From a virus (taxonomy: Duplodnaviria > Heunggongvirae > Uroviricota > Caudoviricetes): DNA of 24,775 nucleotides. The stretch spans positions 1 to 24,775 of IMG/VR virus record IMGVR_UViG_2541047936_000008. One strand, written 5' to 3'. Shown here piece by piece: positions 12,001 through 15,000 of this stretch (within the stretch, counting starts at the first letter, position 1; every line of letters begins with the position of its first letter). Made by a program: the position numbers.

Positions 12001-15000
12001 ACCGGTTGTTAAGTGGTTTCAGGATATGTGGGATAAGCTGAAGCCGATTATTGAATGGTTTACCGACAGTTCCGGTGACACGGTCGATGCCATTAACTCG
12101 GCGCAGTGGGGCGCGGGTGCTTATGATGCTTATGGGACGGGAATACCGCCACGGGGATACACTCCTTATCCGGTGGTGGATCCGGCTCAGGCAAACAACG
12201 CCTCCGATGCCACAGGCTCGAATCCCTTCATGATTAACAAAGCTTCTGTGCCAAAAGTTGATGGTGAGATCAAGGTATCTTTTGTGAATTCGCCTCCGGG
12301 TATGCGGGTTATGGAAACGCGATCCAGCGGTTTTGATGTCAGCCATGATGTTGGCTATACGCGGTTCAGGTAGTGTACAAAATGATTAATGTGTTTTTGT
12401 CTGGCATAATTTGGGTTTTCAGCTTTAAGTAGTTAATATAATCATTCCTTACAAATGATTGAAGGGATGATTATGCGTATCTTTGTTTTTTTATATCTGC
12501 ACTTTTATCTTTTAACTTGGCTGCGGAAGAGTGTAAGTTCAGCTTTAATGAGTCAGAATTAATCTCTTCTATAGGTATTGCACCAGTTAAGCAAGAGATA
12601 ATAAAGGATGAAGGAATAACTAAGCGGCAATATGAATTCAGAAGAGAATTATCTTCTGAAGAAATGCTTAGTGATGACGCTGATGAAAAATATGAGCCGC
12701 AGTTTTATATATCTGTTTATAATCCATCATGCCCACGAAAGGTTATTGTTTGGTTTTTCAAAGACAATAAAAACACAATGGATTTAAGTAATGAGGTCCT
12801 TGCTGGTAGAGCGTTCAAGTATTTAACTGGTGTTAATGAAAGTATTTTTGAAAATAAAATGAAAAAGTTTTTAAAGGTACAGTCATTTGAATCTTTTGAT
12901 GAAAGGACAGATTCTAAATTTATAAAGAGTGGTGATATTTATTCCATTGATGTTCAACTCAGATAGTAATTAAAAATATTAGGTTCCCGCCACATCTTCT
13001 GCGATGTAAATAACTGACAAAGCAGATTTGGCGGGTTTTTTGTATCCGGAGTTTATATGACGTGGAAAGACAGGCTTCAGGATGCGTCATTTCGCGGCGT
13101 ACCGTTTAAGGTTGAAGAAGAAAGTGCGGGAACCGGTCGCCGTGTGGAAACACACGAATATCCGAACCGCGACAAACCCTATACCGAAGATCTGGGAAAA
13201 GTCACTTTCCGCCCGTCCATCACAGCTTATGTGGTGGGAGATGACTGCTTTGACCAGCGCGATCTCCTGATTGAAGCGCTGAATAAACCCGGTCCCGGCA
13301 CGCTTGTTCACCCGACATACGGTGAGCTGAAAGTCTGTGTTGACGGGGAAGTTCGGGTCAGCACATCGAAAAGTGAAGGGCGTATTGTCCGCTTTGACCT
13401 GAAGTTTGTCGAAGCAGGAGAACTCTCTTACCCCACATCAGGTGCGGCGACGGCGCAGACGCTGATGTCATCCTGTTCTGCACTGGATGACTGCATCAGT
13501 GACAGCTTCAGCGGTTTCAGTATCGATGGTGTGGCGGATTTCGTGCAGAACGACGTTATCGGTAATGCCAGCATAATGCTGGGGTATGTTTCTGATGCGA
13601 TGAAAGTGGTGGATTCTGCCGTATCGGATGCCGCCAGGCTGTTGCAGGGGGATATCTCGGTACTTCTGCCGCCGCCATCGTCAGGCAAAAATTTCGTTGA
13701 GCAGGTGCAGAAAATGTGGCGTACCGGGAAACGCCTTTATGGTAACGCCAGCGACCTGGTCACCATGATCAAAACGCTTTCCGGTGTCAGCCTCGGCAGC
13801 GATCTGCAACCGCGCGGCGTCTGGAAAACGGACAGCAAAACCACCGCCACGGCGACGCAGCAGCGTAACGTGGTTGCCAGCACCCTTCGTACGACCGCAA
13901 TCAGCGAAGCGGCGTATGCCGTCACCCGATTGCCTGCGCCAACAACTTCCGCGGTGATGCAGAATTCCGCAGTGGGGCAGGCAACAACACCCGCGCAGAG
14001 CACTGGCTGGCCTTCCGTCACGCATCCGGCACTGAACAATGCACCGGCGGTGAAAAACACGGTTGACCTGCCGACGTGGGAAGAACTGACTGACATTCGC
14101 GACACACTGAATACGGCAATTGATAAGGAGTTGTCCCGTACAACCAGTGATGCGCTGTTTCTGGCGCTGCGCCGGGTGAAAGCAGATCTGAATGCGGATA
14201 TCAACACGCGCCTTGAACAGTCTGCACGGATCATTCAGCGCACGCCGGATGAGGTTTTACCTGCGCTGGTGCTGGCGGCGACCTGGTTTGATAACGCGGC
14301 GCGTGACGCGGACATTATCCGGCGTAATGCCATTACGCATCCCGGCTTTGTGCCGGTGATCCCTCTGAAGGTGCCAGTGCAATGAACGATAACGTCACGC
14401 TACGGGTAAATGGCCGGGAGTGGAATGGCTGGACATCGGTGCGCATCGGTGCCGGTGTTGAACGACTGGCGCGGGATTTCAGTGTGGAGATCACCCGCCA
14501 GTGGCCGGGAGATGAGGGTATCACCACGCTTCAGCCGCGCATTAAAAACGGTTCAAAAGTGGAGGTGCTGATTGGTGATGAGCTGGTGATCACCGGCTGG
14601 GTGGAGGCGACGCCCGTTCGTTACGATGCCCGTTCGGTCAGCACCGGTATTGCCGGACGCAGTCTGACCGCTGACCTGATTGACTGTGCAGCCGAACCGA
14701 CACAGTTTAACGGACGATCGCTGGTACAGATTGCGCAGGCGCTTGCTGCGCCTTTCGGCATTGAGGTGGTGAACAGCGGTGCGCCGTCGGGTGTTATTCC
14801 TGATGTCCAGCCTGATCACGGTGAAACGGTGATTGAGGTAATCAACAAAATACTCGGTCAGCAGCAGGCACTGGCTTACGACGACCCGCACGGCAGGCTG
14901 GTGATTGGCGGTATTGGCTCAACGCGGGCACATACCGCGCTGGTACTCGGGGAAAACATCCTTTCCTGCGATACGGAGAAGAGTATCCGGGAGCGGTTTT

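What the first reader, a model, noticed from the sequence alone, without database searches (positions are those of the whole stretch)
12380..13042. AT-rich moron inside the tail operon, split from its own start codon by a T7 homopolymer
Between the tape measure and gp43-like genes lies an AT-rich insert with a candidate promoter (-10 TATAAT at 12437-12442), a good RBS plus ATG at 12473, and a downstream hairpin plus T-run. The ATG frame encodes a signal-peptide-like start that stops after 29 codons, while the 149 aa body (12517..12966) is in the -1 frame. The frames meet at a T7 tract (12486-12492); one extra T would give a continuous secreted protein MRIFVFFISALLSFNLAAEECKFS.... This could be slipped-strand phase variation, a recent inactivation, or a sequencing error. 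Secreted morons in tail regions are often superinfection-exclusion or host-interaction factors.
Basis: seen in the sequence. Interest (0 to 1): 0.7.

Follow-up and report, generated by a model that had tools for sequence, protein, structure and literature searches.

The report
Frameshifted secreted-protein moron in prophage remnant
A small accessory gene for a secreted protein, inserted in the tail genes of a degraded E. coli prophage, has lost one T from a run of eight and is broken; this is ordinary gene decay at a slippage-prone spot, not an evolved on/off switch.

Summary
An AT-rich insert lies between the tape-measure and DNA-circularization genes. An ATG-started signal-peptide frame is cut off from a 149-codon body by a T7 run. 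Relatives settle what it is. The intact gene (T8, 164 aa, PHROG 8976, function unknown) sits on thousands of contigs, and every diverged homolog keeps the signal peptide, so the TTG start is not the real one.

T7 is a rare derived allele. None of 85 complete E. coli carriers has it with these flanks, and about 2% of alleles overall are out of frame. It recurs on at least five haplotype backgrounds, once together with a 20-bp deletion. An in-frame T5 allele is as common as T7, and T9 is about ten times rarer. The run is interrupted (T6) in another E. coli haplotype and absent in other genera.

The window's prophage is itself a roughly 22-kb remnant without head or lysis genes. Best reading: slippage-mediated inactivation at a mutational hot spot, not programmed phase variation. 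A sequencing error is unlikely.

The protein has a confident predicted fold with no known structural relative. Its slot is a cargo hot spot, and one alternative occupant is Sie-like, so an envelope-level phage-exclusion role is plausible but untested.

The parts
10541..12373 (+). Tail tape-measure gene (610 aa), upstream boundary of the slot
   Evidence: ORF. PF10145 PhageMin_Tail on the identical gene in L004. RefSeq product name in SX12.
12374..12472 (+). 99-nt AT-rich spacer (GC 0.28) holding TATAAT (12437-12442) and a Shine-Dalgarno-like AAGGGA (12462-12467)
   Evidence: The promoter is not supported by the scan. TATAAT has about 0.16 probability by chance.
12473..12562 (+). Native start codon and signal-peptide coding segment. 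In this T7 allele it reads out of frame after codon 6 and stops after 29 codons.
   Evidence: RefSeq starts the 164-aa CDS at this ATG in T8 relatives. The PHROG 8976 profile covers residues 1-164.
12486..12492 (+). T7 homopolymer: the lesion. The ancestral and majority state is T8.
   Evidence: Alignments. Censuses.
12487..12493 (+). U_UUU_UUA in the ATG frame of the T7 allele. This is a canonical -1 slippery heptamer by sequence only; a -1 slip would rejoin the body frame.
   Evidence: Read directly. There is no stimulatory structure downstream (z -0.24). Homologs are single-frame, so it is not programmed.
12517..12966 (+). Body of the gene, listed as a 149-aa TTG ORF. The mature domain starts at about 12526 (EECKF...). 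It has two invariant Cys.
   Evidence: AF2 model pLDDT 87.8. dN/dS about 0.2 between E. coli haplotypes.
12986..13041 (+). Terminator-like hairpin (7-bp GC stem, 36-nt structured loop) plus T6. This is a backbone feature shared with relatives that have an empty slot.
13057..14385 (+). DNA-circularization (Mu N/gp43-like) gene, downstream boundary of the slot
   Evidence: PF07157 on the identical gene.
9105..9774 (+). Deletion junction (about 9105-9108) and the remaining C-terminal 198 codons of the tail sheath gene. This shows the prophage is defective.

Best explanation
The 683-bp AT-rich insert (12374-13056) is a moron-type cargo gene of SfV/SfII-like prophages that have Mu-type tails.

Intact form. 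The gene has T8 and encodes 164 aa (PHROG 8976). The product has a Sec-type signal peptide, predicted to be cleaved after ...NLAA. The mature domain is about 145 aa, has two invariant cysteines, and has a confident predicted alpha/beta fold with no known relative.

This window. The window comes from draft genome GCA_000461215.1. One T has been lost from the T8 run by replication slippage. Ribosomes that start at the native ATG therefore stop after 29 codons. The body is left behind a TTG with no ribosome-binding site and no signal peptide. The allele is a null, or at best a very leaky one.

Why this is decay and not a switch. T8 to T7 is a recurrent loss-of-function mutation at a slippage hot spot. 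Purifying selection keeps it rare. It is not an evolved phase-variation switch. In this window it sits in a prophage that has already lost its head, lysis and half-sheath genes, so it is one step in prophage decay.

What is shown: the gene structure, the lesion, allele frequencies, recurrence, position, conservation and the remnant status of the prophage.

What is inferred: export and the disulfide bond; expression in lysogens; and the function. My best guess for the function is a periplasmic factor that interferes with entry of superinfecting phage. I put about 0.35 on that part.
For: Structure of the gene
- T8 relatives give one continuous 164-aa ORF from the ATG, annotated as such in RefSeq and in phage SKA5.
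- Homologs at 55-67% identity from Kosakonia, Kluyvera and Atlantibacter, and more distant homologs (not quantified), all keep M-R, a hydrophobic core, small residues at -3/-1, then [E/D/G][E/Q]C.
- The PHROG 8976 profile spans all 164 residues.

T7 is rare
- Among 85 complete E. coli carriers, 71 are exact T8, at least 8 are SNP haplotypes without an indel, 2 are T5, and none is an exact T6, T7, T9 or T10.
- T7 was found in 3 of 45 IMG/VR and metagenome contigs.
- Exact-protein look-ups on the common haplotype: intact on at least about 2,000 contigs, T7 on 64, T5 on 70, T9 on 8, T6 on 0.
- On the window's haplotype: intact on 1,192 contigs, T7 on 1-3.

T7 is recurrent and goes with decay
- T7 occurs on at least five backgrounds.
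- One copy has T7 plus a 20-bp deletion (L037).
- Another cluster has T5 plus a frameshift, apparently at the A5 run near 12686, inferred from the protein sequence (P0016).

The gene is under selection
- dN/dS is about 0.2.
- The in-frame -3 allele is as common as the mechanistically easier -1 allele.

The run is not conserved
- It is GTG-interrupted to T6 in 7 contigs that encode the same peptide.
- Other genera have only T4-T5 runs at this position.

Not an error-prone assembly
- There is a single gap in 9,258 aligned nt against SX12.

The prophage is a remnant
- Repressor, CII, Ash and replication genes are fused to sheath codon ~277. The junction is absent from all complete genomes. The prophage is about 22 kb between the host DUF2713 gene and dusA.

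Moron status and functional hint
- Among 74 near-identical tail modules, the slot is empty in 21, holds this gene in 20, and holds one of three unrelated low-GC genes in 33.
- One of those alternative genes matches PHROG 8545 'superinfection exclusion Sie-like' at 1.5e-49.
Against: - No reads were available. For this particular assembly, T7 could still be a consensus error, or one state of a mixed population.
- Contig counts reflect how lineages were sampled, not independent events, so the ~2% figure and the -1:-3 comparison are rough.
- 4 of the 85 complete genomes were not individually listed.
- Recurrence on several backgrounds is also what a low-rate contingency locus would show.
- The functional proposal rests only on predicted localisation and on what else sits in the slot. 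The protein has no match in PADLOC, Pfam or NCBIfam, and no fold relative.
- No promoter is supported, so expression from the repressed prophage is unproven.
Confidence: 0.72

Rival explanations
1. Evolved slipped-strand phase variation. The T run is a contingency locus that reversibly switches the secreted protein ON (T8) and OFF (T7) in lysogen populations.
For: The frameshift lies exactly in a homopolymer inside the signal-peptide coding region. Length variants T5, T7, T8 and T9 all exist in nature. T7 recurs on several haplotypes.
Against: - OFF alleles are only about 2%, and no exact-flank T7 occurs in 85 complete genomes.
- The run is only 8 A/T bases.
- It is broken to T6 by a synonymous change in another E. 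coli haplotype, and it is absent in other genera.
- A T7 copy has acquired a second, irreversible lesion.
- Other homopolymers in the gene also appear to give frameshifts (P0016, inferred from the protein sequence).
Confidence: 0.1
2. Sequencing or assembly artefact. The isolate really has T8, and the draft assembly miscounted the homopolymer.
For: Homopolymers are classic error sites. The source is a draft assembly. One of the other T7 contigs has only 1.4x coverage (L054). No complete genome has T7 with these flanks.
Against: - The identical T7 haplotype appears in a separate Logan run assembly and in an ENA metagenome scaffold.
- T7 products occur on 64 further contigs, one of them 5 Mb.
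- The T run is the only indel in 9.26 kb against the closest relative, although that stretch contains another run of 7.
Confidence: 0.1
3. The T7 allele is not null. Ribosomal -1 frameshifting on U_UUU_UUA (12487-12493), or transcriptional slippage on the T run, restores enough full-length exported protein (MRIFVFL-ISALL...) to matter.
For: In the ATG frame the T7 allele forms a textbook X_XXY_YYZ heptamer, and a -1 slip lands exactly in the body frame (read).
Against: There is no downstream stimulatory structure (z -0.24). The arrangement is derived, rare, and not conserved in any homolog. From general knowledge, this heptamer without a stimulator gives only low-percentage shifting in E. coli.
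Confidence: 0.06
4. The TTG-started 149-aa ORF is the true gene, encoding a cytoplasmic protein, and the upstream ATG segment is irrelevant.
For: NCBI carries the 149-aa product as WP_248699395.1.
Against: There is no Shine-Dalgarno sequence before the TTG. All homologs, down to the most distant, extend upstream with a signal peptide, and an invariant Cys follows the cleavage site. The 149-aa form is at least 30-fold rarer than the 164/170-aa form.
Confidence: 0.02

Closest known systems
HK97 gp15 moron (Juhala et al. 2000; Cumby et al. 2012; reviewed in PMC3594210)
   Same: A single small gene inserted in the tail operon next to the tape-measure gene, with deviating GC, absent from close relatives, and envelope-targeted. 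gp15 excludes superinfecting phage at the DNA-entry step.
   Different: gp15 sits upstream of the tape-measure gene, is an inner-membrane YebO-like protein, and has a documented promoter and lysogen expression. The gene here is downstream of the tape measure. It is predicted to be a cleaved, soluble periplasmic protein. It shows no sequence or fold similarity to any Sie protein. Its promoter and phenotype are untested.
PHROG 8976 (phage orthologous group, function unknown)
   Same: Full-length match at E 3e-106 over all 164 profile positions. The window's gene is a frameshifted member.
   Different: Nothing is known about the family. The window's copy is disrupted.
Homopolymer-mediated phase-variable (contingency) genes, e.g. 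those of Bordetella, Neisseria, Haemophilus and Campylobacter (PMC1891110 for the concept)
   Same: A frameshift inside a coding homopolymer, with natural length polymorphism.
   Different: The tract is short (8 A/T). OFF alleles are rare. The tract is not conserved among orthologs. Secondary lesions accumulate in OFF copies.
T4 Sp (spackle) and other periplasmic or envelope exclusion factors such as Cor and Llp (from general knowledge)
   Same: Small phage-encoded proteins exported across the inner membrane that act on incoming phage or its receptor.
   Different: No homology was detected. Cor and Llp are lipoproteins, and there is no lipobox here. The analogy concerns localisation only.
Variable cargo hot spots of temperate phages, such as the P2/P4 anti-phage hot spots (from general knowledge)
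   Same: One fixed intergenic slot between conserved core genes holds alternative, unrelated low-GC cargo genes in otherwise near-identical phages.
   Different: The cargo here consists of single small envelope or PH-domain proteins. None matches a PADLOC defence model.

Membership tests
Moron (Juhala/Hendrix definition) | Extra DNA between two genes that are adjacent in related phages | tested here: met
   SfII, SfV and SfI, plus 21 of 74 IMG/VR relatives, have only a 60-nt spacer with a terminator. The insert is present in 85 of 868 E. coli genomes that carry these flanks.
Moron (Juhala/Hendrix definition) | Base composition deviating from neighbouring genes | tested here: met
   GC 0.32 against 0.52-0.56 here, and 0.33-0.36 against 0.47-0.55 in four other lineages.
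Moron (Juhala/Hendrix definition) | Own promoter | tested here: inconclusive
   There is a perfect TATAAT but no -35 and no TG extension. The scan finds 0 sites, and chance probability is about 0.16. The spacer looks unrelated in the other genera (by eye, not aligned).
Moron (Juhala/Hendrix definition) | Own terminator | tested here: inconclusive
   A hairpin plus T-run follows the gene, but the same element exists in empty slots, so it belongs to the backbone.
Moron (Juhala/Hendrix definition) | Expression from the repressed prophage | not testable with these tools
   Needs RNA-seq, 5'RACE or reporter fusions in a lysogen.
PHROG 8976 | Significant full-length match to the family profile | tested here: met
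   E 3.3e-106 for the E. coli form and 1e-71 to 1e-90 for diverged members, over profile positions 1-164.
Simple-sequence-repeat phase-variable (contingency) gene | A repeat tract whose length changes shift the reading frame | tested here: met
   T8 is in frame and T7 is out of frame.
Simple-sequence-repeat phase-variable (contingency) gene | ON and OFF tract lengths both common among closely related strains | tested here: not met
   No exact T7 in 85 complete genomes. Out-of-frame alleles are about 2% of contigs.
Simple-sequence-repeat phase-variable (contingency) gene | Tract maintained across orthologs | tested here: not met
   A synonymous GTG interrupts it to T6 in a second E. coli haplotype. 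Kosakonia, Kluyvera and Atlantibacter have only T4-T5.
Simple-sequence-repeat phase-variable (contingency) gene | High-rate reversible switching within a clone | not testable with these tools
   Needs reads or colony-level assays.
Sec/SPase I-exported protein | Positively charged n-region, hydrophobic h-region of 10-12 residues, and small residues at -3/-1 | tested here: met
   Manual features across 15 family members: M-R/K, a maximum 10-residue Kyte-Doolittle mean of 2.2-3.7, and A/V/S/L at -3 with A/S at -1 in 13 of the 15. No dedicated predictor was available.
Bacterial lipoprotein (SPase II) | Lipobox [LVI][ASTVI][GAS]C with Cys at +1 | tested here: not met
   In most members the Cys is preceded by [E/D/G][E/Q] (AEEC, AEQC), not by G/A/S.
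Programmed -1 ribosomal frameshift site | X_XXY_YYZ heptamer in the zero frame | tested here: met
   U_UUU_UUA at 12487-12493 in the ATG frame of the T7 allele.
Programmed -1 ribosomal frameshift site | Downstream stimulatory structure, and conservation of the two-frame arrangement | tested here: not met
   The downstream fold is no better than shuffles (z -0.24). All homologs are single-frame.
Known superinfection-exclusion or defence proteins | Sequence or fold similarity to a described Sie or defence family | tested here: not met
Known superinfection-exclusion or defence proteins | Exclusion phenotype | not testable with these tools
   Needs plating assays.

The most novel reading that the evidence does not exclude
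PHROG 8976 encodes a periplasmic superinfection-exclusion (or other envelope-protective) factor with a previously unseen fold. Its T8 run gives lysogen lineages a heritable, occasionally reversible OFF state. That OFF state remains slightly leaky through -1 slippage on the U_UUU_UUA heptamer created by the T7 allele.
Probability: 0.06. Interest if true: 0.6.

Novelty: new member of a known kind. Interest (0 to 1): 0.28.

Why it matters
As it stands, this is an ordinary case: a prophage accessory gene inactivated by homopolymer slippage inside a decaying prophage.

Two by-products are modestly useful. First, it defines a small orphan family of secreted proteins. The family has only 12 cluster representatives among 1.84 billion proteins, is restricted to Enterobacteriaceae prophages, and has a confident predicted fold with no relative. 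Second, it identifies the junction between the tape-measure and DNA-circularization genes of SfV-like phages as a cargo hot spot. That slot holds at least four unrelated small genes, three of them predicted membrane or secreted proteins and one already classed as Sie-like.

This gives a cheap experimental panel for finding new phage-exclusion proteins. Natural T7, T5 and T8 alleles can serve as ready-made null and functional controls.

Tried and rejected
- Pfam, NCBIfam and PADLOC scans of the repaired protein and three diverged homologs gave nothing.
- A profile search of 1.84 billion representatives found only the family itself, 12 hits, with no link to a known family.
- BFVD gave one 180-aa metagenomic phage protein (TM 0.63). 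Its automatic name, 'ABC transporter periplasmic binding protein', is not informative.
- The afdb50 library was unavailable.
- Model coordinates are not exposed, so the Cys-Cys distance could not be measured.
- The promoter scan found none.
- A fold of the RNA downstream of the slippery heptamer showed no structure, so programmed frameshifting was rejected.
- Literature searches by accession, PHROG id and phage name, and for morons in SfV-type phages, found nothing on this gene. The SfIV moron described in the literature lies elsewhere in the genome.
That event is therefore inferred from the protein only. Independent T7 backgrounds were shown at DNA level with L037, L050 and L054.
- The idea that the sheath gene was broken by further homopolymer errors was rejected. 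It is truncated by a large deletion.
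Full report
**1. The observation**

Reading 12200-13200 and listing ORFs confirms every coordinate.
- The ATG is at 12473, behind AAGGGA (12462-12467).
- The T7 run is at 12486-12492.
- The ATG frame reads MRIFVFLYLHFYLLTWLRKSVSSALMSQN and stops at 12560-12562.
- A 149-codon ORF runs from TTG 12517 to 12966, in the -1 frame relative to the ATG.

The segment between the tape-measure gene (10541-12373) and the DNA-circularization gene (13057-14385) has GC 0.28-0.37. 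Its neighbours have 0.52 and 0.56.

The TATAAT at 12437-12442 exists but is weak evidence for a promoter. The promoter scan reports no site in 12200-13200. There is no -35 and no TG extension. About 16% of shuffles of the 99-nt spacer contain TATAAT.

The hairpin plus T-run is real: CCCGCCA 12986-12992, TGGCGGG 13029-13035, T6 13036-13041, MFE -22.3 kcal/mol, z -2.3.

**2. The two frames are one gene**

The same 821 bp occurs in 84 complete E. coli genomes and in the isolated phage SKA5, nearly always as 822 bp. Alignment places the extra base in the T run.
- SX12 and SKA5 have T8 and one continuous 164-aa ORF from the ATG. RefSeq annotates it so in SX12 (WP_038988911.1). The SKA5 GenBank record starts it at the upstream ATG, giving 170 aa.
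- Strain FDN-24 has T5, also in frame.

A protein search found a 764-member cluster at 98% identity, plus homologs at 55-67% identity from Kosakonia, Atlantibacter and Salmonella. The full-length homologs at 55-67% identity start with M-R, then 10-12 hydrophobic residues, then small residues at -3/-1, then [E/D/G][E/Q]C. Three of four more distant representatives do too, and the fourth lacks the N-terminal segment.

The family is PHROG 8976, function unknown, and its profile covers all 164 positions. The TTG has no Shine-Dalgarno sequence and is not the native start.

**3. How common is T7?**

I used short queries centred on the run, so that only exact matches reach 99% identity.
- 85 complete E. 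coli genomes carry the gene.
- 71 of them are exact T8.
- 2 are exact T5.
- None is an exact T6, T7, T9 or T10.
- Of the other 12, the 8 that could be listed span 86 nt, which means SNP haplotypes without an indel.

The window is identical to NCBI draft GCA_000461215.1.

T7 is not private to that assembly. A Logan assembly of another run and an ENA metagenome scaffold carry the same T7 haplotype.

A pattern scan allowing any 3-14 bases in place of the run found 45 further contigs.
- 35 have T8.
- 7 have TGTTTTTT. Here a synonymous GTG Val codon cuts the run to T6 while the peptide stays the same.
- 3 have T7.
- None has T9 or longer.

The T7 copies lie on different backgrounds.
- The window's R haplotype.
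- The Q haplotype (L054).
- Q plus a V-to-I change (L050).
- Q plus a 20-bp deletion inside the body (L037).
- A fifth background is implied by protein P0022.

Exact-sequence look-ups give the broadest census. On the Q haplotype:

| Allele | Contigs |
|---|---|
| Intact, called as 170 aa | 998 |
| T7 (149 aa) | 64 |
| T5, in frame | 33 + 37 |
| T9 (161 aa) | 8 |
| T6 | 0 |

On the window's R haplotype, the intact product is on 727 + 465 contigs and the T7 product on 1-3.

**4. Interpretation of the run**

Out-of-frame alleles make up roughly 2%. They recur, and -1 is about ten times more common than +1. This is what slippage at an 8-base A/T run should produce.

Four observations argue against an evolved switch.
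- OFF alleles are rare, and none of the 85 complete genomes has T7 with these flanks.
- The run is not conserved. It is interrupted in a second E. coli haplotype and reduced to T4-T5 in Kosakonia, Kluyvera and Atlantibacter.
- OFF copies go on to collect irreversible lesions, such as L037. Another cluster, P0016, has T5 plus a frameshift, apparently at the A5 run near 12686, inferred from its protein sequence.
- The in-frame T5 allele is as frequent as T7, although a -3 slip is mechanistically much rarer than a -1 slip. Together with dN/dS of about 0.2 between E. coli haplotypes, this indicates selection for an intact protein.

Contig counts are not independent events, so these ratios are rough.

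A general sequencing problem in this assembly is unlikely. Across 9,258 nt aligned to SX12 at 99.5% identity, the T run is the only gap.

In the T7 allele the ATG frame happens to form U_UUU_UUA (12487-12493), and a -1 slip there would rejoin the body frame. There is no downstream structure (z -0.24) and no homolog has a two-frame arrangement. At most this makes the allele slightly leaky.

**5. Context**

The window's prophage is a remnant. Its gene order from left to right is as follows.
- A host DUF2713 gene (1-708).
- An S24 repressor (5481-6155, minus strand), CII (6478-7041), Ash (7038-7874) and an HTH/DnaD-like gene (8100-8918).
- The last 198 codons of the normally ~499-aa tail sheath (9178-9774).
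- The Mu-type tail and baseplate genes.
- An invertible fibre segment with its invertase (20193-20795).
- An integrase (22176-23273, minus strand).
- Host dusA and pspG.

Homology to the intact SX12 prophage begins at 9105, inside the sheath gene. The junction (left half 100% identical to a yfdN-type early region, right half sheath) is found in no complete E. coli genome. About 15 kb of lysis, terminase, head and connector genes are therefore missing. The frameshift is one more lesion in a decaying element.

**6. What the gene is**

Diverged homologs occupy exactly the same slot in Kosakonia, Kluyvera, Atlantibacter and a metagenome bin. That slot lies between the tape-measure stop codon and the backbone terminator that precedes the DNA-circularization gene.
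- In every lineage the gene has low GC: 0.33-0.36 against 0.47-0.55 in the flanks.
- Where compared (Kosakonia and the metagenome bin), the protein diverges faster than the flanking genes: 51-61% identity against 74-79% for tape measure and circularization.

Among 74 IMG/VR prophages whose circularization protein is at least 98% identical, the slot has several states.

| Slot content | Count |
|---|---|
| Empty (60 nt, terminator only) | 21 |
| This gene | 20 |
| 176-aa N-terminal-TM protein (PHROG 5485) | 25 |
| 148-aa TM + OB-fold protein on the opposite strand (PHROG 8545, 'superinfection exclusion Sie-like', E 1.5e-49) | 7 |
| 125-aa bacterial PH-domain protein | 1 |

All inserts have GC 0.32-0.37. 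None matches PADLOC.

This is moron behaviour at a cargo hot spot. The classical analogue is HK97 gp15, a moron next to the tape-measure gene that blocks DNA entry (PMC3594210).

**7. The protein**

The family is tiny. A full HMM scan of 1.84 billion representatives gave 12 hits, and only two further species representatives carry it.

AlphaFold2 with the 14-sequence alignment gives a confident alpha/beta model of the mature part (pLDDT 87.8, pTM 0.82).
- Foldseek against PDB has nothing at E 1e-3 or better.
- BFVD gives a single 180-aa metagenomic phage protein (TM 0.63, 14% identity).

The family has two invariant cysteines, one just after the predicted cleavage site and one in P-[SP]-C. Together with the signal peptide, this suggests a disulfide-bonded periplasmic protein. 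There is no lipobox.

**8. Mechanism and verdict**

Shown:
- The window carries a -1 slippage allele (T8 to T7) of a conserved, selected prophage cargo gene with a predicted export signal.
- The allele ends translation after 29 codons and strands the mature domain without an RBS or signal peptide.
- It lies in a defective prophage.

Inferred:
- The intact protein is exported by Sec.
- It is made in lysogens.
- It acts in the envelope.

Given the slot's other occupants and the HK97 gp15 precedent, the likeliest role is interference with entry of superinfecting phage. I put about 0.35 on that. Other envelope or host-fitness roles are not excluded.

Phase variation (0.10) and assembly error (0.10) remain minor rivals that read data would settle.

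Novelty is low: a new, frameshifted member of a known kind (a moron). The orphan fold and the hot spot are the parts worth following up.

Noticed in passing
window 12374-13056; loci L062-L141: The junction between the tape-measure and DNA-circularization genes is a cargo hot spot. Among 74 prophages with at least 98% identical flanking protein, the slot is empty (21), holds PHROG 8976 (20), or holds one of three other genes. Those are a 176-aa TM protein, PHROG 5485 (25); a 148-aa TM + tRNA_anti-like OB-fold protein on the opposite strand, PHROG 8545 'Sie-like' (7); and a 125-aa bPH_1 protein (1). All inserts have GC 0.32-0.37.
   Followed up: partly
window 8100-9774 (junction about 9105-9108): A large internal deletion fuses a yfdN-type early or replication region to codon ~277 of the tail sheath gene. 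Lysis, terminase, portal, capsid and connector genes are missing. The junction is absent from all 5,426 complete E. coli genomes searched.
   Followed up: yes
window 18058-20795: An invertible tail-fibre segment. Tail-fibre assembly genes (Caudo_TAP) lie on both strands (18801-19397 plus strand, 19369-19809 minus strand). A fibre C-terminal cassette lies on the minus strand (19812-20210). A Gin/Pin-type serine invertase is at 20193-20795.
   Followed up: no
window 22176-24775 and 1-708: The prophage is bounded by an integrase (22176-23273, minus strand) that abuts host dusA (23362-24399) and pspG, and on the left by a host DUF2713 gene. It is therefore a dusA-associated integration, and the whole element is only about 22 kb.
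   Followed up: partly
window 12986-13041 versus L008, L010, L060, L061, L007: The backbone terminator is a compact CCCGC-TTCG-GCGGG-T7 hairpin in the Kosakonia, Kluyvera and Atlantibacter copies, and GTCCCAC-TCCG-GTGGGA-T6 in SfII. In the E. coli moron lineage, the same GC stem encloses a 36-nt structured loop. Whether it still terminates is unknown.
   Followed up: no
window 12686-12690 (A5) and 12796-12815: Other natural lesions occur in the same gene elsewhere. Cluster P0016 (6 members) combines T5 with a frameshift that appears to lie at the A5 run (inferred from its protein sequence). IMG/VR contig L037 combines T7 with a 20-bp deletion (GGTCCTTGCTGGTAGAGCGT).
   Followed up: partly
window 12473-12966; L008, L010, L060, L061: The gene keeps a GC of 0.32-0.36 in every lineage, although it has co-diverged with tail modules of GC 0.47-0.56 down to about 55-60% protein identity. 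Its composition has not shifted toward that of the flanks.
   Followed up: no
window 12455-12472: An in-frame upstream ATG (12455, MIEGMI-) makes gene callers split between a 170-aa and a 164-aa model for the same intact allele (727 against 465 contigs, and 998 against at least 1,000). Family conservation supports the 164-aa start.
   Followed up: partly
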